Source: a virus
Taxonomy: Duplodnaviria > Heunggongvirae > Uroviricota > Caudoviricetes
Length of the DNA stretch: 7,379 nt
IMG/VR virus record: IMGVR_UViG_3300028969_000089
Direction: 5' to 3' (one strand)
Shown here: positions 1 to 7,379 of the stretch, one piece after another
Layout: each line of letters begins with the position of its first letter
How positions within the stretch are numbered: the stretch's first letter is position 1
Notes under the pieces: generated by a model
Told to the model about the DNA's origin: nothing
The model's database searches: none
What the model saw: only the letters and a program-made list of their open reading frames with translations
Translations under genes and position numbers: made by a program

Positions 1-82
1 AAATGTGGCCTGGCTGCACTCTGAAGTCACCGCATGGATGGCCGGGCGCATTGCCGGACGCAAACGGGGGTACGACGCATGA
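1..82 (+). CDS. 3' end of Vis/AlpA-family small DNA-binding regulator (5' truncated by window edge)
   Basis: Aligns base-for-base with 6744..6825, the 3' end of the complete 88-aa ORF 6559..6825. Reading frame ends at stop TGA 80..82, encoding ...[26 protein letters not shown]. Confidence 0.6.
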
Positions 83-117
83 TGATGCCCGCTCTGCAAA
101 AACTCCCTTTTTCTGGC

Positions 118-147
118 TTGCCTTTTTCCGGCATTTGCGGATATAGT
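118..147 (+). promoter_or_regulatory. Sigma70-like promoter, candidate early promoter of the left operon (P4 PLE equivalent)
   Basis: TTGCCT (118..123), 18-nt spacer, TATAGT (142..147), directly downstream of the vis stop. Identical hexamers at 6861..6866 and 6885..6890 in copy B. Confidence 0.4.
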
Positions 148-210
148 TTTTCCGCTGTCGCAAAATCGGCAGCCGGGCGTGAGAACCCGAGCAATTCACA
201 GGCGACATAT

Positions 211-232
211 GACGCGCCACGCGTCTTTTTTT
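211..232 (+). terminator. Intrinsic terminator-like hairpin in the leader
   Basis: GACGCG (211..216), loop CCA, CGCGTC (220..225), then seven T (226..232). Copy B keeps a GACGC/GCGTC stem plus T7 at 6954..6975. Confidence 0.45.
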
Positions 233-390
233 GTGTCGCAATCAATGCCACAGAGCGCCAGATTATGGTGTGGTGTGTGGTCAGTCGTGCAGATGGCATT
301 CCGTGCATCCTGCCCGCGTCCGCTCATTATGCCGCAGAGTCAATGGTAGCTCAGGCGGGGCAGCCTCCGGGCTGGCCGGTATCCTGTGAA

Positions 391-452
391 GCCGGTATTC
401 TCACCCCCGTCTGGGCTATCGCCATCGAGCGTGAGAACTCCGGCGATAGCGT
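391..452 (+). ncRNA. Candidate CI-like immunity RNA core (62-nt block identical in both repeat copies)
   Basis: The 62 nt at 391..452 are identical to 7125..7186 while the 10 nt immediately upstream and the sequence downstream differ. Contains a 9-bp stem GCTATCGCC (415..423) / GGCGATAGC (442..450) with an 18-nt loop exposing GTGAGAAC (431..438), and an upstream TTCTCAC (398..404) complementary to GTGAGAA. Confidence 0.35.
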
Positions 453-480
453 TATTTGCTATTCACAGGAGGCTGCCATC

Positions 481-678
481 ATGGCTACAACCCTTACCCC
501 CTCACACCCTGAATTTGTCTTTGTGTTTGCGGCTGTCCGTCGCGCAGACCGTCATCCCCGTATCTGTATGCTTCGCACCGTCGCCGGTGATGAACGCAGT
601 GCCCGCCGTTCCCTTGTCCGTGACTATGTGCTCTCCCTTGCTGCCCGTCTGCCGGTGGTGGAGGTGTCCCGTGCGTAA
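481..678 (+). CDS. Small conserved protein (65 aa) downstream of the CI-like block; function unknown (Kil/Eps position of a P4-type left operon)
   Basis: ATG 481 preceded by AGGAGG (467..472) with an 8-nt spacer. Copy B (7215..7379) differs at only three positions across the 55 aligned codons, all synonymous third-base changes (ACA/ACG, CCC/CCT, TGT/TGC). Confidence 0.55.
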
Positions 679-958: not shown

Positions 959-1011
959 TTTTCCCCAGCTCCACCACTTGCTCTTCCGGATACGTCCGGA
1001 GAAATCCTAAA

Positions 1012-1044
1012 AGCCCGCATGGCACAAGCTCTGCGGGCTTTTTT
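1012..1044 (+). terminator. Rho-independent terminator closing the upstream module
   Basis: Perfect 8-bp stem AGCCCGCA (1012..1019) / TGCGGGCT (1032..1039) with a 12-nt loop, followed by a T-run to 1044; A-run precedes the stem. Confidence 0.55.
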
Positions 1045-1088
1045 GTGTCTACCATTGTCCGAGGATATCCAGCTAAATCCAGTGATTA

Positions 1089-1140
1089 TTGGTATACGTT
1101 TAGGTATACGGTAGGATGTATACCTAAACGCGTATACCAA
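1089..1140. promoter_or_regulatory. Imperfect 21-bp inverted repeat with four GGTATAC/GTATACC heptamers upstream of int; candidate integrase or regulator binding region
   Basis: Left arm TTGGTATACGTTTAGGTATAC (1089..1109) and right arm GTATACCTAAACGCGTATACCAA (1118..1140) are reverse complements apart from one inserted base, separated by 8 bp, ending 20 bp before the int start. Confidence 0.4.
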
Positions 1141-1160
1141 TTCATGAAGGAGCGGCCACA

Positions 1161-2399: not shown

Positions 2400-3758
2400 A
2401 TGCCAAATAACTACCATCAATACATCGAAGACGTTAGTGATGATATAAAGACATGTCTTGAAGGAATGGGATGCCAACCCATACTTTTTGTTGGATCGGG
2501 ATTAACCAAGAGATATCTTTCTGGCCCAAACTGGGAAGAACTTCTTCAGCAACTTGCTAATGAATGTCCTAACATCGATAAAAGATTTGCCTATTATAAA
2601 CAGAAATACCCCGAGTTGATTGATATCGGCAGTGTATTTTCTGATTCTTATAACGAGTGGGCATGGGGTGATGGAGAGAAAGAATTTCCAGCAGAGTTAT
2701 TTGATGCAGGCAATGAGCCAAGTATTTATTTTAAATACAAAGTATCTAGTATTTTCAACTCATTGTTACAAGAAAAAGAAATCGTAAACAACGGTGAAAT
2801 TGAACTTCTGAGAAAGATTCACCCTCATTCAATCATCACAACAAATTACGACAAATTACTTGAATCGATATATCCTGAGTTTACCCCCATTATAGGCCAA
2901 AAAATCCTTTACGCTAATCACGGTAGCATTGGTGAAATACTTAAAATACATGGTTGCTGCTCCACTCCTGAAAGCATAATAATAAACCGCGATGACTACG
3001 ATGACTTCATAAAGAAGAAGAAATATTTAAGCGCAAAACTGCTTACTTTCTTTGCTGAACACCCTCTTCTATTTATAGGTTACAGCGCAGAAGACTCGAA
3101 CATAAAAAACATACTATCTGATATTGATGAACTACTTTCAGAAAATGGAGATGTCATTCCAAATATATACATTTTAGAATGGACGAGCAAACAAAATGAA
3201 AGTGAATACCCACGCCGTGAACGGCTGATTCAAGTATCTGCAAACAAAAGCATTAGAATAAAAAGTATAGTAGCAAATGACTTCTCTTGGGTATTTTCAG
3301 CGTTTGGCGCGAACAGAGCACTTGATAACATAAATCCCAAATTATTGAGGGCACTTTTAGCTCGCACTTACGATCTCGTCAGAACTGATATACCTCGCAA
3401 TCCTGTCCAAGTTGATTACCGAGTTTTATCAAGCATTAGCGAGTCAGAAGGTGAATTAGCGAAATTATATGGTATCGCCACATCGTCAGATGGTATGGCA
3501 TTTAATGCCAGTTATCCTTTTACTTTAACCACGCTAGGGCAATCACTTGGTTTCAAAGGCTGGCATGATGCGAACAAACTATTAGAAGTAGTTAAAAACA
3601 TCACGAACGTAGACATCAAGACATTCGATAACAAATACCACTATGCAATAATGAACGGTGATGAGATTCAGTCCCATAGATATTCAAACTATCTTCGAGA
3701 ACTCCTCGAAAAGGTTAGGGATGGAGAGGAGTTTGAGTTAGGAATAAAGGCTCCATAA
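2400..3758 (+). CDS. SIR2-like (SIR2_2-type) putative NAD+-hydrolase, candidate standalone antiphage defence protein with an uncharacterised C-terminal domain
   Basis: 452-aa ORF with AAGGAG at 2388..2393. Motifs read directly: ILFVGSGLTKRYLSGPNWEELL (Gly-rich NAD pocket), ITTNYD (Asn149, codon 2844..2846), KIHG (His184, codon 2949..2951), LFIGYSAED. Gene is markedly AT-rich against GC-rich flanks and starts 25 bp after the int stop. Confidence 0.8.
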   Translation: MPNNYHQYIEDVSDDIKTCLEGMGCQPILFVGSGLTKRYLSGPNWEELLQQLANECPNIDKRFAYYKQKYPELIDIGSVFSDSYNEWAWGDGEKEFPAELFDAGNEPSIYFKYKVSSIFNSLLQEKEIVNNGEIELLRKIHPHSIITTNYDKLLESIYPEFTPIIGQKILYANHGSIGEILKIHGCCSTPESIIINRDDYDDFIKKKKYLSAKLLTFFAEHPLLFIGYSAEDSNIKNILSDIDELLSENGDVIPNIYILEWTSKQNESEYPRRERLIQVSANKSIRIKSIVANDFSWVFSAFGANRALDNINPKLLRALLARTYDLVRTDIPRNPVQVDYRVLSSISESEGELAKLYGIATSSDGMAFNASYPFTLTTLGQSLGFKGWHDANKLLEVVKNITNVDIKTFDNKYHYAIMNGDEIQSHRYSNYLRELLEKVRDGEEFELGIKAP

Positions 3759-3809: not shown

Positions 3810-3945
3810 CACAGCATTATTCATGCTTCTAGCACGATATGATGAACCGCAATAATCATAGCTAACAGGATTAATTTAAAGCATTACTCCTCGACTGAAG
3901 CGTGCTGTCATGCGAAAAAAATTTAAACTACCACGTTAGCGCGCA

Positions 3946-3964
3946 GTGCTTTCCCCGCCTCGCC
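3946..3964. other. Candidate cos site (P2/P4-type 19-nt cohesive end)
   Basis: GTGCTTTCCCCGCCTCGCC is the exact reverse complement of GGCGAGGCGGGGAAAGCAC, which I recall as the P2/P4 cohesive-end sequence. It lies between the cargo gene and psu, as cos does in P4. Confidence 0.6.
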
Positions 3965-4066
3965 CGCCCGCTTTGCGGGGCGGTTTTAATGCAGTTGCAC
4001 TGACACGCTCAGACCGCGCCGGGAATGGTGCGGTCTGCAGAAAATGAGGCAGGAAAACGCATGCAA

Positions 4067-4128: not shown

Positions 4129-4701
4129 TTACACAGACTGACGTGATGCCAGTTGCGCACTTTTACGCGAAAAAATCATGTTCTGCGCAGGGGTGAATTT
4201 TTCACGGCTGTCATCCACCGAAGCCGCGTCAGGCCTGAATCCGATGGCCGTTAAAATGTCGCTATCCTGTGCGGAATAATTAATTTTTTCCCCCTTCGCA
4301 AGCCAGGACAGAAGGGCTTCACGCAGGGCATCTGTGGCACGCTGTATGGCACAGTTTCGGGCAATGACCGTCAGCTCACTGTAGCCCATCAGCTCCGGTG
4401 CCAGTGCCGCCGCCAGTGCTGTGCCGTGCTGCTGCATAAAATCATTCAGCCGGTCGCGGATGCTGATGTGCTGAACGGCTTCATGCGAACGAATATAACG
4501 ACCGGCGGCCTGATTCACCTGCCATTTTCTGACTTCGATAATATTGCGTAATTCGTCCAAGCGACTGACGTTTCTGCCTTCTCCTGACAGAAGCCGCAGA
4601 TATTCCTGTTCGGCCGCAGCCAGCTCATTTTTGCGTTGCAGCCATGCTGCTTTGTTATTCTGACAGGTGTCAAAGGCCTGCTGTAAGGCTGTGCTTTCCA
4701 T
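4129..4701 (-). CDS. psu: Polarity suppression protein Psu (P4 capsid decoration / Rho antagonist)
   Basis: 190-aa ORF whose sequence (MESTALQQAFDTCQNNKAAWLQRKNELAAAEQEY...) matches my recollection of P4 Psu in length and sequence. Last gene of the sid-delta-psu late operon. Confidence 0.85.
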   Translation of the reverse strand: MESTALQQAFDTCQNNKAAWLQRKNELAAAEQEYLRLLSGEGRNVSRLDELRNIIEVRKWQVNQAAGRYIRSHEAVQHISIRDRLNDFMQQHGTALAAALAPELMGYSELTVIARNCAIQRATDALREALLSWLAKGEKINYSAQDSDILTAIGFRPDAASVDDSREKFTPAQNMIFSRKSAQLASRQSV

Positions 4702-4774: not shown

Positions 4775-5275
4775 TCATTCCAGACGCAGCGAATATGATT
4801 GTGTTTTTAACCGTACTGGCGGCAGTTCCTGTTTTTCATGCAGGCGTTCTGCCAGTTCGTCCGGTGTGACCGGGCGGACAATGAAGCGGTTGATGGTCTG
4901 AAGCGTTTTAAACACCAGACCACATCCCGGATCCGTGCACACATAAAAACGCTCGGTGACTTCCTGAGACAGACGCCGCGATGTTCTTGACAGTGCAAGG
5001 CCTTTACATCTCCGACAACAATATCCGGTAACAAGCATTCTTTTCGGGCGTTTCATACTGCCGGAGGCTGACGTCAGTGAATCGCGGTATCTCTGTTTGC
5101 CTGAAATGTATTCCATTCCTGAATCTTTACAGTCAGAGAAAAAGCTTTCACTCGCTTCAAATGTCGCAGAGCAATAAATATTCCGGCACTGTGCAATCAT
5201 TATCTTGGTGCCATCGTCCATGAAATGTGCGCGACGGGTGTGAGCAACATGTCCACACGACGGGCAGTAAATCAT
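4775..5275 (-). CDS. delta: Delta, Ogr/Delta-family zinc-finger late transcription activator
   Basis: 166 aa, the length of P4 Delta. Two Ogr-like halves each with Cys pairs (CPSC...CRNIYC and CCRRC...CTDPGC). Start overlaps the sid stop in an ATGA junction at 5272..5275. Confidence 0.85.
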   Translation of the reverse strand: MIYCPSCGHVAHTRRAHFMDDGTKIMIAQCRNIYCSATFEASESFFSDCKDSGMEYISGKQRYRDSLTSASGSMKRPKRMLVTGYCCRRCKGLALSRTSRRLSQEVTERFYVCTDPGCGLVFKTLQTINRFIVRPVTPDELAERLHEKQELPPVRLKTQSYSLRLE

Positions 5276-6006
5276 GACAGCAGTCCTCTGGCCTTAAGCT
5301 CTGCTCCCTGCTGGTCTATTTTGTCCTGCCACACCTTGCGCTGTGCCGGTGTGCCTGCCACCTCATAATCCATGTGCGGGAGTGTTGCCGCTGACAGTCC
5401 GGTCAGCCGGAGAACCGGCTCGCCGGTGAGGCTGATTTGCATCTGTTTAATTTTCTGTTCCAGCGATGATTTCACCTGCTGCATGACAGCCTTTTCCGGT
5501 GCGACGTAGCCCTGATGGCCGGTGGTGTTGGCGAGCGGATTTTCCTGTACCAGGATACTCAGATGCATTGCCCGGACAAGCGCCTCACAGGTTTCATTTA
5601 GGGCGTGTTCCAGCTCATGCTCTGCATACAGACTCAGAAGGTGATGATGTGCCTTCCGGTAGGCGGTGGCCGTGCTGTCACACGCCCCTTTCAGGCGTTC
5701 ACGTTCGAAATTCAGCACCACGGCCAGATTGTCATATTCCTGTACCAGCTCCCGGCGTGCCACGCGCTCAATGTGGCGCTGTTTCAGCTCGTCGCTCAGG
5801 ACACCACCGGCTGCACGAAAGGCCGTGCGCCAGTCGTCAGCGTCGTTTCCGTCGGCCTGCGCCAGCGCATTTTTTTCCTGCTCTGCCCGTTCAATGGCCG
5901 TGATGGTCTCATCCATCAGGCGGGCGTTCTCAAGATGAGCGGCTCTGGCCTTTTCCAGTTGTGCCAGCGCGGGTTGCAGATATTCAGGGATGGTGTTGTC
6001 AGACAT
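5272..6006 (-). CDS. sid: Sid, external scaffold / capsid size determination protein
   Basis: The ORF track extends to 6072, but the ATG at 6004..6006 (MSDNTIPEYL...) has a GGAG 6 nt upstream and gives 244 aa, matching P4 Sid as I recall it. The upstream ATG would overlap the predicted promoter dyads. Confidence 0.8.
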   Translation of the reverse strand: MSDNTIPEYLQPALAQLEKARAAHLENARLMDETITAIERAEQEKNALAQADGNDADDWRTAFRAAGGVLSDELKQRHIERVARRELVQEYDNLAVVLNFERERLKGACDSTATAYRKAHHHLLSLYAEHELEHALNETCEALVRAMHLSILVQENPLANTTGHQGYVAPEKAVMQQVKSSLEQKIKQMQISLTGEPVLRLTGLSAATLPHMDYEVAGTPAQRKVWQDKIDQQGAELKARGLLS

Positions 6007-6040
6007 TTTCCGGCTCCTCGTCACTTCAGGTTGAGAAAAT

Positions 6041-6096
6041 TGTGACGTACACCGGACAACAACACGACGCATTGCAGATGTGCCAGCCCTGACACA
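6041..6096 (-). promoter_or_regulatory. Candidate Psid late promoter with two Ogr/Delta-type TGT-N12-ACA dyads
   Basis: Dyads TGT-N12-ACA at 6041..6058 and 6079..6096, centres 38 bp apart. If the distal dyad is at -55 the start site falls near 6032, about 26 nt upstream of the sid ATG, and the proximal dyad near -17. Confidence 0.5.
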
Positions 6097-6175
6097 GGAG
6101 ACTCATCCTCAGACCGGCAAGCCAGGAAAAGGTCGCAGGAAAAACCGGCTTACTGTTTGTTTTTTTATATTTTAC

Positions 6176-6279
6176 TGTTCACCTCTGTTCACCATAAGAA
6201 AAAAGATAAGTAATACAGTAAGTTAAATGGTGAACAATCGCAGTAATGACTGTTCACCGTCTGTTCACCACTGTTCACC
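6176..6279. repeat. Iteron array: six TGTTCACC octamers (ori/crr-like replication element)
   Basis: Octamers at 6176, 6186, 6251, 6262, 6272 (direct) and 6229..6236 (inverted). Adjacent direct copies are spaced 10 to 11 bp, with an AT-rich stretch between the clusters. TGTTCACC is the repeat I recall as the P4 alpha-protein binding site in ori and crr. Confidence 0.55.
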
Positions 6280-6382
6280 CGCTCATGGACTTTTTGTGCT
6301 GTTTACTACTGTTTGTTTTTATTAATTCGCCGGGAATGAATAAGAAGAAACGATTTGTATTTCACTATAAAAATTACGAATT

Positions 6383-6412
6383 GCTTTAAGTGGCTTTAAA
6401 TGACTTTAAGTG
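6383..6412. repeat. Three tandem 10-bp repeats upstream of vis
   Basis: GCTTTAAGTG (6383..6392), GCTTTAAATG (6393..6402), ACTTTAAGTG (6403..6412): head-to-tail and helically phased. Confidence 0.4.
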
Positions 6413-6438
6413 GGAATGAACAAAAAACACACAGTCAT

Positions 6439-6456
6439 TGTAAGGCGGCCGGAACA
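6439..6456 (+). promoter_or_regulatory. Candidate activator dyad for the rightward late promoter upstream of vis (PLL equivalent)
   Basis: TGT (6439..6441), 12 nt, ACA (6454..6456). Placing it at -55 puts the start site near 6502, about 57 nt upstream of the vis ATG. No convincing -10 hexamer was identified. Confidence 0.25.
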
Positions 6457-6558
6457 AATCCCCCCTGTTGCGTCTGCCAAAAAGATTCACAAAATAAAGC
6501 GCTACCCGAAGCCGGACGGACTTATCCGGTGCTGTATGGACATTAACGAGGTAGCCCG

Positions 6559-6825
6559 ATGCAAGCTGTTTTTTCTTCCCCGTCTCCCTCCCCTGTGACG
6601 CCACTGATGCCGCTGCCGGACATCACGCAGGAGCGTTTTTTACGTCTGCCGGAAGTGATGCACCTGTGCGGCCTGTCACGTTCGACCATCTATGAACTCA
6701 TCCGTAAGGGGGAATTTCCGCCGCAGGTGAGTCTTGGCGGTAAAAATGTGGCCTGGCTGCACTCTGAAGTCACCGCATGGATGGCCGGGCGCATTGCCGG
6801 ACGCAAACGGGGGTACGACGCATGA
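6559..6825 (+). CDS. vis: Vis/AlpA-family small DNA-binding regulator / excisionase-like protein
   Basis: 88-aa ORF with an AlpA-type helix-turn-helix core ([43 protein letters not shown]). Position between the late promoter region and the early promoter matches P4 vis as I recall it. Confidence 0.75.
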
Positions 6826-6860
6826 TGATGCCTGTTCTGCAAAAACTCCCTTTTTCTGGC

Positions 6861-6890
6861 TTGCCTTTTTCCGGCATTTGCGGATATAGT
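6861..6890 (+). promoter_or_regulatory. Sigma70-like promoter, copy B of the candidate early promoter
   Basis: TTGCCT (6861..6866), 18-nt spacer, TATAGT (6885..6890); identical to copy A. Confidence 0.4.
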
Positions 6891-6953
6891 TTTTCCGTTG
6901 CCGCAAAATCGGCAGCCGGGCGTGAGAACCCGAGTATGTTATCGGCGACATAT

Positions 6954-6975
6954 GACGCGCCATGCGTCTTTTTTT
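6954..6975 (+). terminator. Leader hairpin plus T7, copy B
   Basis: GACGC (6954..6958) / GCGTC (6964..6968) with a 5-nt loop, then seven T (6969..6975). Confidence 0.4.
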
Positions 6976-7124
6976 GTGTCGCAATCAACGCCACAGAGCA
7001 CCAGATTATGGTGTGGCGTGTGGTTTGCCGTGCAGGTATGATCCTGTTCGCAATCGCATGTTATGCCTCTGAGTCAATGGTAGCTCAGGCGGGGCAGCCT
7101 CCGGGCTGGCCGGTTTCCGATAAC

Positions 7125-7186
7125 GCCGGTATTCTCACCCCCGTCTGGGCTATCGCCATCGAGCGTGAGAACTCCGGCGATAGCGT
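7125..7186 (+). ncRNA. Candidate CI-like immunity RNA core, copy B
   Basis: 62 nt identical to 391..452, flanked by diverged sequence. Confidence 0.35.
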
Positions 7187-7214
7187 CATTTACGCTGTTA
7201 TCGGAGGTTGCCTT

Positions 7215-7379
7215 ATGGCTACGACCCTTACCCCTTCACACCCTGAATTTGTCTTTGTGTTTGCGGCTGTCCGTCGCGCAGACCGTCATCCCCGTATCTG
7301 CATGCTTCGCACCGTCGCCGGTGATGAACGCAGTGCCCGCCGTTCCCTTGTCCGTGACTATGTGCTCTCCCTTGCTGCC
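7215..7379 (+). CDS. Small conserved protein, copy B (3' truncated by window end)
   Basis: ATG 7215 preceded by GGAGG. The 55 codons visible differ from 481..645 only at three synonymous sites. Confidence 0.5.

What the first reader, a model, noticed from the sequence alone, without database searches (positions are those of the whole stretch)
6041..6096. Paired TGT-N12-ACA dyads 38 bp apart upstream of sid fit an Ogr/Delta-activated late promoter
Two perfect TGT-N12-ACA dyads (6041..6058 and 6079..6096) lie immediately upstream of the sid ATG. P2/P4 late promoters are recalled to carry such a dyad centred near -55, with P4 Psid having a second Delta site near -18. A 38-bp centre-to-centre spacing matches that pattern and predicts a start site near 6032. 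The dyads also argue that the annotated upstream ATG at 6072 is not the true sid start.
Basis: partly seen in the sequence, partly recalled or inferred. Interest (0 to 1): 0.45.

Follow-up and report, generated by a model that had tools for sequence, protein, structure and literature searches.

The report
Known P4 sid late promoter (Psid)
The two dyads are the activator-binding sites of the well-studied late promoter Psid of satellite phage P4, here in a P4-like prophage whose promoter differs from P4's at one base, so the finding is correct but already known.

Summary
Exact TGT-N12-ACA dyads lie at 6041-6058 and 6079-6096, centres 38 bp apart, upstream of sid on the minus strand.

The window is a P4-like prophage, 97.5% identical to P4. 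The 124 bp upstream of sid differ from P4 at one base, so this is P4's Psid promoter.

On the sid strand a -10-like CACAAT sits at 6044-6039 and there is no -35 match. An A at 6032 is the predicted start, which puts the dyad centres at -55.5 and -17.5. In the P2 GenBank record, the activator site shared by PO and PP lies exactly 55.5 bp from both annotated start sites.

Across 16 distinct Psid sequences from other Enterobacteriaceae satellites (Sid 57-67% identical) there are no indels from the distal dyad to +1. The distal TGT and ACA, the -10 and the +1 A never vary.

The proximal dyad is exact only in the P4 lineage. It reads TGT-N12-AGA in all 14 cores outside that lineage.

The ATG at 6072 lies upstream of the predicted start, has no Shine-Dalgarno sequence and is not conserved. 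P4 records and RefSeq start sid at 6006 (244 aa).

The start site and binding by Delta were not tested here, and I could not retrieve the paper reporting the -18 Delta site. Verdict: interpretation supported, already known, low interest.

The parts
6079..6096 (-). Distal TGT-N12-ACA dyad, the Ogr/Delta activator site. Its centre is at -55.5 from the predicted start. On the sid strand it reads TGTGTCAGGGCTGGCACA.
   Evidence: Exact match and identical in P4. TGT and ACA are invariant in 16 distinct lineage sequences, while the central 5 bases vary. It is the top hit in the window (22.1 bits, next best 10.4) for a PWM built only from non-P4-lineage orthologues.
6041..6058 (-). Proximal TGT-N12-ACA dyad, centred at -17.5 and overlapping the -10 hexamer. 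On the sid strand it reads TGTCCGGTGTACGTCACA. I take it to be the second Delta site.
   Evidence: Exact match and identical in P4. It lies 38 bp from the distal dyad in every lineage. The TGT is invariant, but ACA becomes AGA in all 14 cores outside the P4 lineage (14 of 16 in total). Binding by Delta is recalled from the literature and was not verified here.
6059..6078 (-). The 20-bp spacer between the dyads (-46..-27). It holds conserved blocks GCAA (-43..-40), TCG (-35..-33) and TGTTGT (-29..-24, running into the proximal TGT), and has no -35 consensus.
   Evidence: Invariant columns. The sigma-70 scan finds no promoter between 5900 and 6700.
6039..6044 (-). The -10-like hexamer CACAAT (-12..-7).
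   Evidence: Read from the sequence. It is CA[C/G]AAT in all 16 lineage sequences, in a fixed register.
6032..6032 (-). Predicted transcription start (A). It gives a 26-nt 5' UTR.
   Evidence: Inferred from the -10 position and the -55.5 geometry calibrated on P2 PO/PP. The A is invariant, with CT at -3/-2. It was not mapped here.
6070..6072 (-). Upstream in-frame ATG that opens the 266-aa ORF. It is not the sid start.
   Evidence: It lies at about -40 of the promoter and has no Shine-Dalgarno sequence upstream. It is absent in lineages L010, L011, L012, L014, L015, L020 and L021. Full-length Sid homologues are nearly all 243-245 aa.
6014..6019 (-). Shine-Dalgarno sequence GAGGAG, 7 nt upstream of the sid ATG.
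   Evidence: Every related locus has a purine-rich Shine-Dalgarno-like sequence at this position (GAGGAG, GAGGAA, TAGGAG, AGAGGA or GAGAG), not always GAGGAG itself.
5272..6006 (-). sid, the capsid size determination gene (244 aa).
   Evidence: 242 of 244 residues identical to P4 Sid. Annotated at these limits in P4 and in RefSeq.
4775..5275 (-). delta, the activator gene. It encodes two fused Ogr-like zinc-finger domains and is transcribed from this promoter.
   Evidence: Pfam Ogr_Delta with two matched stretches. 163 of 166 residues identical to P4 Delta, with two CX2CX22CX4C motifs.
4129..4701 (-). psu, the last gene of the late operon.
   Evidence: Pfam Psu at 2e-88. 187 of 190 residues identical to P4 Psu.
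6439..6456 (+). Third exact dyad, upstream of vis (ORF88). I take it to be the activator site of the divergent late promoter PLL.
   Evidence: It starts 120 nt before the vis ATG and is exact in P4-lineage sequences but degenerate in other lineages. A CACAAAAT box 31 nt downstream is invariant.

Best explanation
The region 6032-6096 on the minus strand is Psid, the activator-dependent late promoter of the sid-delta-psu operon of a P4-type satellite prophage.

RNA polymerase with sigma-70 finds only a weak -10 (CACAAT, 6044-6039) and no -35, so the promoter is silent on its own. A zinc-finger activator binds the distal dyad (6079-6096, centre about -55.5) and recruits polymerase. The activator is Ogr from a P2-type helper, or the satellite's own Delta, which is two Ogr-like domains fused in one chain. 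Established work on P2 says recruitment goes through the C-terminal domain of the alpha subunit.

Transcription starts at about 6032 and sid is translated from the ATG at 6006. Because delta lies in the same operon, the circuit reinforces itself once triggered.

The proximal dyad (6041-6058, centre about -17.5) is a second, lineage-specific Delta site that overlaps the -10. Its contribution is the least certain step.

Shown here:
- the anatomy;
- near-identity to P4 Psid;
- fixed spacing and conservation across lineages;
- presence of the activator gene.

Inferred or taken from the literature:
- the start site;
- binding by Ogr and Delta;
- contact with the alpha subunit.
For: Exact dyads at the stated coordinates.

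The window is 97.5% identical to P4, and the 124 nt upstream of sid differ from P4 at one base, at position -1.

Sid, Delta, Psu and Vis are 98-99% identical to the P4 proteins, and Delta has two CX2CX22CX4C zinc fingers.

No sigma-70 consensus promoter is found in 5900-6700, as expected for an activator-dependent promoter.

The P2 GenBank record annotates start sites and activator sites. The shared PO/PP site TGTGTCAGTGATAAGCCA is centred 55.5 bp from both starts. The same distance here gives 6032, which is 7 nt past the -10-like hexamer.

In 16 distinct Psid cores from Scandinavium, Enterobacter, Citrobacter, Kluyvera, Klebsiella, Raoultella, Atlantibacter and others (Sid 57-67% identical), there is not one indel over the 66 columns from the distal TGT to +1. 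Predicted 5' UTR lengths vary from 21 to 27 nt. The distal TGT and ACA, the -10 and the +1 A are invariant, while the centre of the dyad varies freely.

The 73-bp core occurs in 978 of 5426 complete E. coli genomes, always at 95% identity or more. The surrounding 601 bp drop to 80-95% in more than half of the records.

Literature: TGT-N12-ACA is the consensus of P2 late promoters (PMC3931495). Ogr binds inverted repeats centred near -55 and needs the alpha subunit; that paper cites the mutational analysis of a P4 late promoter (PMC3152322).
Against: No transcript 5' end and no protein-DNA binding was measured here, so the start at 6032 is a prediction good to about 2 nt.

The primary papers on Psid are not held (Dale 1986, Van Bokkelen 1991, Julien & Calendar 1995). 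The -18 Delta site therefore rests on recollection.

The proximal dyad is exact only in the P4 lineage. Beyond the six core bases it shares nothing with the distal site: 0.3 bits on the distal-site PWM.

A site at -18 lies inside the polymerase footprint, which is an odd place for an activator.

P2's own late promoters contain no exact TGT-N12-ACA, so the consensus is loose, and one-mismatch matches are frequent by chance.
Confidence: 0.9

Rival explanations
1. Only the distal dyad is a working activator site. The proximal 'dyad' is a by-product: its TGT belongs to a conserved TGTTGT block, and its ACA is just the P4-lineage spelling of the -10 hexamer (CACAAT instead of CAGAAT). Any Delta binding there does little or nothing for activation.
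For: ACA is AGA in all 14 cores outside the P4 lineage, while the -10 register is unchanged. The proximal site scores 0.3 bits on a PWM of distal sites. The two sites are 38 bp, or 3.6 helical turns, apart and so not on the same face of the helix. A position at -18 lies inside the polymerase footprint.
Against: Two exact dyads 18-60 bp apart arise in only 1.7% of shuffles, and exactly 38 bp apart in 0.04%. The proximal TGT and the 38-bp spacing are invariant in all lineages. I recall a published Delta footprint at -18 at both P4 late promoters, but could not verify it here.
Confidence: 0.3
2. The dyads are operators for a different protein, such as Vis (ORF88), P2 Cox or the alpha replication protein, since the region borders the P4 origin.
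For: The P4 records include this region in the annotated rep_origin (9086-9809). Cox-box-like TTAAAG repeats and alpha-type TGTTCACC repeats lie within 350 bp.
Against: The alpha repeats (TGTTCACC) and the Cox boxes (TTAAAG/CNCA) are different sequences at different places, 6176-6290 and 6385-6415. The dyads match the published Ogr consensus, and their distance to the -10 is fixed in every lineage.
Confidence: 0.04
3. The dyads are chance matches lying inside the coding region of a longer Sid (266 aa) that starts at the ATG at 6072.
For: The longest ORF does run from 6072. The total number of exact dyads in the window is not above chance.
Against: There is no Shine-Dalgarno sequence before 6072, while GAGGAG precedes 6006. 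The ATG is absent in seven related loci. Full-length Sid homologues are nearly all 243-245 aa. P4 and RefSeq annotate 244 aa. The conservation pattern upstream of 6006 is that of a binding site with a variable centre, not of codons.
Confidence: 0.01

Closest known systems
Psid, the late promoter of the sid-delta-psu operon of satellite phage P4 (X51522 / NC_001609, upstream of sid at 9583)
   Same: The sequence is the same apart from one base at -1 (C in the window, T in P4) across the 124 nt upstream of sid. The downstream genes are the same, at 98-99% protein identity.
   Different: Nothing of substance differs. The copy sits in a prophage whose integrase (403 aa) and cargo gene (a SIR2-domain protein) are not those of P4.
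PLL, the second Delta/Ogr- and Cox-activated late promoter of P4, upstream of vis/ORF88
   Same: It has an exact TGT-N12-ACA (6439-6456), followed at a similar distance by a CACAA-type -10 region. It diverges from Psid across the origin.
   Different: I found no recognisable second dyad. The distance from the end of the dyad to the CACAA box is 31 nt, against 34 nt at Psid. The dyad is degenerate (N11 or N13) in non-P4 lineages.
Phage P2 late promoters PP, PO, PV and PF (AF063097)
   Same: The activator site is centred about 55 bp upstream of the start, there is a weak -10 and no -35, and the same family of zinc-finger activators acts on them.
   Different: The P2 sites are imperfect (TGT-N12-CCA at PO/PP and at PF). 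None is an exact TGT-N12-ACA, and there is a single site per promoter. Psid carries two exact dyads.

Membership tests
Ogr/Delta-dependent late promoter of P2/P4 type | Inverted repeat TGT-N12-ACA upstream of the core promoter | tested here: met
   Exact at 6079-6096. TGT and ACA are invariant in 16 lineage sequences. The consensus is as cited in PMC3931495.
Ogr/Delta-dependent late promoter of P2/P4 type | Repeat centred about -55 from the mapped transcription start | not testable with these tools
   The start was not mapped here. With the -10-like CACAAT at 6044-6039 the predicted start is 6032, which places the centre at -55.5. That equals the distance at P2 PO/PP computed from the annotated starts.
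Ogr/Delta-dependent late promoter of P2/P4 type | Recognisable -10 but no -35 consensus (activator dependence) | tested here: met
   The sigma-70 scan of 5900-6700 finds nothing. The hexamer 17 bp upstream of CACAAT is TCGTGT, which matches TTGACA at 2 of 6 positions (read).
Ogr/Delta-dependent late promoter of P2/P4 type | Cognate Ogr/Delta zinc-finger activator present in the element or its helper | tested here: met
   delta at 4775-5275 matches Pfam Ogr_Delta twice, carries two CX2CX22CX4C motifs and is 163/166 identical to P4 Delta.
Ogr/Delta-dependent late promoter of P2/P4 type | Transcription requires Ogr or Delta, and the protein binds the repeat | not testable with these tools
   This needs reporter assays and footprinting. 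It is inferred from near-identity to P4 Psid and from the literature summaries.
P4 Psid specifically | Orthologous position and sequence: immediately upstream of sid, between sid and the P4 origin repeats | tested here: met
   One mismatch in 124 nt against X51522. The ori type-1 repeats and vis are in the same order as in P4.
P4 Psid specifically | Second Delta site centred near -18 | tested here: inconclusive
   An exact dyad is present with its centre at -17.5. Binding cannot be tested here, the source paper is not held, and the exact dyad is confined to the P4 lineage.

The most novel reading that the evidence does not exclude
The only new element is comparative. In every P4-like satellite sampled, a second element sits exactly 38 bp from the activator site. 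It has an invariant TGT half and a -10-overlapping half that is AGA in all 14 cores outside the P4 lineage and ACA only in the P4 lineage.

This could mean the -18 site is an ancestral weak Delta site that the P4 lineage 'perfected'. That change would tune how strongly the satellite's own Delta, as opposed to the helper's Ogr, drives or limits the self-reinforcing sid-delta-psu operon.
Probability: 0.2. Interest if true: 0.3.

Novelty: already known. Interest (0 to 1): 0.1.

Why it matters
It adds little for discovery. Psid and its activator sites were characterised in P4 in the 1980s and 1990s, and this copy is essentially the same sequence.

It has some practical value:
- It fixes the sid start at 6006 rather than 6072.
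- It predicts a 26-nt leader.
- It shows that promoter geometry is frozen across Enterobacteriaceae satellites whose Sid proteins are only about 60% identical: no indels from -64 to +1. That could help annotate late promoters in the many P4-like elements found in genomes.

Tried and rejected
1. Primary papers. Look-ups for Julien & Calendar 1995 and 1996, Van Bokkelen 1991, Lindqvist 1993, Halling 1990 and two Christie reviews all failed because none is held. Full-text searches found only secondary statements. The -18 Delta site and the mapped Psid start therefore remain unverified here.

2. Pattern scan of IMG/VR with TGTGYCA-N5-TGSCACA-N3-GCAA. It returned 13 hits, none followed by a Psid-like sequence, so they look like chance matches.

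3. PWM built from non-P4-lineage distal sites. It finds the window's distal dyad as the top hit, but gives no useful score to the proximal dyad (0.3 bits), the PLL dyad (-9.5 bits) or the P2 late promoters. It captures lineage-specific flanks rather than activator specificity.

4. One-mismatch dyad count. It is close to chance (44 against 34.6), so it is uninformative.

5. The 1984-era GenBank record X02534 marks a 'consensus -10' at a place that maps into the distal dyad. I treated this as an early guess made before the promoter was characterised.

6. I first took the TGTTCACC repeats for P4 crr. The P4 annotation shows they are the ori type-1 repeats.

Full report
**Observation.** The window contains exactly three TGT-N12-ACA matches: 6041-6058, 6079-6096 and 6439-6456. 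The first two are the reported pair, with centres 38 bp apart. The total count is no more than chance (1.99 expected), and one-mismatch versions are common (44 against 34.6 expected). The arrangement is unusual, however. In 5000 dinucleotide shuffles, two separate dyads 18-60 bp apart appeared in 1.7%, a spacing of exactly 38 bp in 0.04%, and three dyads within 420 bp in 0.9%.

**Context.** The window is a P4-type satellite prophage. It matches phage P4 (X51522) at 97.5% identity over 59% of its length. Going down the minus strand it encodes:
- sid at 6006-5272 (244 aa);
- delta at 5275-4775 (166 aa, two Ogr_Delta domains);
- psu at 4701-4129.

A P2-type cos region follows near 3936-4011. On the plus strand lie the origin repeats, vis/ORF88 (6559-6825) and the isrK and C4 immunity RNAs. 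Sid, Delta, Psu and Vis are 242/244, 163/166, 187/190 and 86/88 identical to the P4 proteins, and Delta has two CX2CX22CX4C motifs. The 124 nt upstream of the sid ATG differ from P4 at a single base, C6033 against T in P4. So the reported pair of dyads is P4's Psid promoter region.

**Anatomy on the sid strand.** The sequence reads TGTGTCAGGGCTGGCACA (6096-6079), then 20 nt, then TGTCCGGTGTACGTCACA (6058-6041), then ATTTTCTCAAC. After a short leader come the Shine-Dalgarno GAGGAG (6019-6014) and the ATG at 6006.
- The only -10-like hexamer is CACAAT (6044-6039).
- Seventeen base pairs upstream of it is TCGTGT, a 2-of-6 match to TTGACA.
- The sigma-70 scan finds no promoter anywhere in 5900-6700.
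- A start 7 nt past the -10 falls on the A at 6032.
- That start puts the dyad centres at -55.5 and -17.5 and gives a 26-nt leader.

**Calibration on P2.** The GenBank record of P2 (AF063097) annotates late transcription starts and activator sites. The site shared by the divergent PO and PP promoters, TGTGTCAGTGATAAGCCA, is centred 55.5 bp from both annotated starts. The PF site is centred about 57.5 bp from the middle of its annotated start range. No P2 late promoter has an exact TGT-N12-ACA, and the five exact matches in P2 lie elsewhere. The consensus is therefore an idealisation, and the P4 sites are unusually good matches to it.

**Literature support.** Two held papers give the background. 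One states that TGT-N12-ACA is the consensus of the four P2 late promoters, which depend on the zinc-finger protein Ogr (PMC3931495). The other states that Ogr binds conserved inverted repeats centred at about -55 and needs contact with the RNA polymerase alpha subunit; it cites the mutational analysis of a P4 late promoter (PMC3152322).

**Comparative test.** A Sid alignment (A2) retrieved 19 loci from other species: Scandinavium, Enterobacter, Citrobacter, Kluyvera, Atlantibacter, Klebsiella, Raoultella, Superficieibacter, Pseudescherichia and a record labelled Vagococcus. One locus is 99% identical to the window's Sid; the others are 57-67% identical. Together with P4 and the window they give 16 distinct promoter cores.
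- Over the 66 columns from the first T of the distal dyad to +1 there is no indel in any of them.
- Predicted leader lengths range from 21 to 27 nt.
- Invariant positions are the distal TGTG.CA and CACA, GCAA at -43..-40, TCG at -35..-33, TGTTGT at -29..-24 (which includes the proximal TGT), the -10 as CA[C/G]AAT, CT at -3/-2, and the A at +1.
- The five central bases of the distal dyad vary freely (GGGCT, TTTTT, TGACT, GACCT, GAACT and others).

This is the signature of a dimeric binding site held at a fixed distance from the core promoter.

Within E. coli, the 73-bp core is present in 978 of 5426 complete genomes, always at 95% identity or more. The surrounding 601 bp fall to 80-95% in more than half of the records. 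Three E. coli relatives that are 92-99.8% identical over those 601 bp have the same Psid sequence, apart from the C/T at -1.

**The proximal dyad.** Its register is fixed in every lineage, but it is exact only in the P4 lineage. All 14 cores outside the P4 lineage read TGT-N12-AGA, because their -10 is CAGAAT rather than CACAAT. A PWM built from non-P4 distal sites scores the window's distal dyad at 22.1 bits (next best 10.4) but the proximal dyad at 0.3 bits. The two sites therefore share only the six core bases. I recall that Julien & Calendar (J Bacteriol 1995) footprinted Delta at about -55 on all six P2 and P4 late promoters, and additionally at about -18 on Psid and PLL. That paper is not held, so this remains recollection. 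The sequence evidence is compatible with a weaker, lineage-tuned second site. It is also compatible with a by-product of the -10 spelling.

**The ATG at 6072.** It opens the longest ORF (266 aa), but several things rule it out as the sid start:
- It lies at about -40 of the promoter.
- It has no Shine-Dalgarno sequence upstream, whereas GAGGAG precedes the ATG at 6006.
- It is missing in seven related loci.
- Full-length Sid homologues are nearly all 243-245 aa.
- P4 records and RefSeq annotate the 244-aa gene.

**The third dyad.** The dyad at 6439-6456 starts 120 nt upstream of the vis ATG. It is exact in P4-lineage sequences, and an invariant CACAAAAT box follows 31 nt after it. This fits PLL, the divergent late promoter. 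PMC3936717 describes PLL as activated by P2 Cox through cox-boxes (TTAAAG/CNCA) upstream of it. Such repeats are visible at 6385-6415.

**Mechanism.** The chain is: helper Ogr or satellite Delta binds the -55 dyad; polymerase is recruited to a promoter lacking a -35; transcription starts at about 6032; sid, delta and psu are expressed, with positive feedback through delta. The anatomy, the orthology and the conservation are shown here. The start site, the binding and the alpha-subunit contact are inferred from P4/P2 literature and from geometry.

**Verdict.** The feature is the already-known P4 Psid promoter, so interest is low. The only modestly new points are the indel-free geometry across distant satellites and the lineage-restricted perfection of the -18 dyad.

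Noticed in passing
window 1-645 versus 6744-7379: The two ends of the window are direct repeats, 89-98% identical. Each carries isrK and the C4/CI immunity RNA (154-231 and 339-426; 6897-6974 and 7073-7160). The left copy continues into an Ash-family ORF and an epsilon-like derepression gene that ends at 958. This looks like a truncated second P4-like element sitting in tandem just upstream of the complete one.
   Followed up: partly
window 960-1160: Right after the truncated copy comes CCAGCTCCACCA (966-977). From memory, this matches the 3' end of tmRNA (ssrA). A terminator-like hairpin follows at about 1009-1038, and then an integrase gene (1161-2372, 403 aa, not the 440-aa P4 Int). A Salmonella record matches 965-1119 under a feature noted only as 'Rfam score 247.52'. 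This suggests an ssrA-type attachment site between the two tandem satellites. ARAGORN finds no intact tRNA or tmRNA.
   Followed up: partly
window 2400-3758 (+): A 452-aa SIR2_2-domain protein sits between the integrase and cos/psu, where P4 has gop-beta-cII. Its best PADLOC match is the candidate defence family PDC-S25 (2e-84), with weaker ThsA matches. It looks like anti-phage cargo in the known P4 hotspot.
   Followed up: partly
window 6439-6456 and 6485-6500: The third exact TGT-N12-ACA lies upstream of vis, with an invariant CACAAAAT box downstream. I take it to be the PLL late promoter. In non-P4 lineages the dyad becomes TGT-N11/N13-ACA, and I saw no convincing second dyad.
   Followed up: partly
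window 6385-6415: Three tandem 10-bp repeats (CTTTAAGTGG / CTTTAAATGA / CTTTAAGTGG) correspond to the P4 'ori type 2 repeats' and resemble the P2 Cox-box consensus TTAAAG/CNCA. They are replaced by unrelated sequence in two E. coli relatives whose Psid and PLL cores are unchanged (L024 and L025).
   Followed up: no
window 6100-6135 (minus strand: GGTTTTTCCTGCGACCTTTTCCTGGCTTGCCGG): A block just upstream of the distal dyad is strongly conserved across all satellite lineages (TTTCCTG..GACCTTT.TCTGGC..GCC). It contains a short direct repeat, TTTCCTG / TTTCCTGG. Its function is unknown. It could belong to the origin, or be a site for a DNA-bending or regulatory protein.
   Followed up: no
L022 (P2, AF063097) 3057-3087, 10239-10266, 17555-17583: None of the annotated P2 activator sites is an exact TGT-N12-ACA. 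The five exact matches in the P2 genome lie outside the late promoters. Exact-pattern scans would therefore miss the real sites in helper phages.
   Followed up: yes
NC_001609.1 (RefSeq P4), sid CDS: RefSeq labels the P4 sid product as 'polarity suppression Psu-like by overcoming Rho', and many genomes label Sid as 'glycoprotein 3'. Both product names are misleading for the capsid size determination protein.
   Followed up: no
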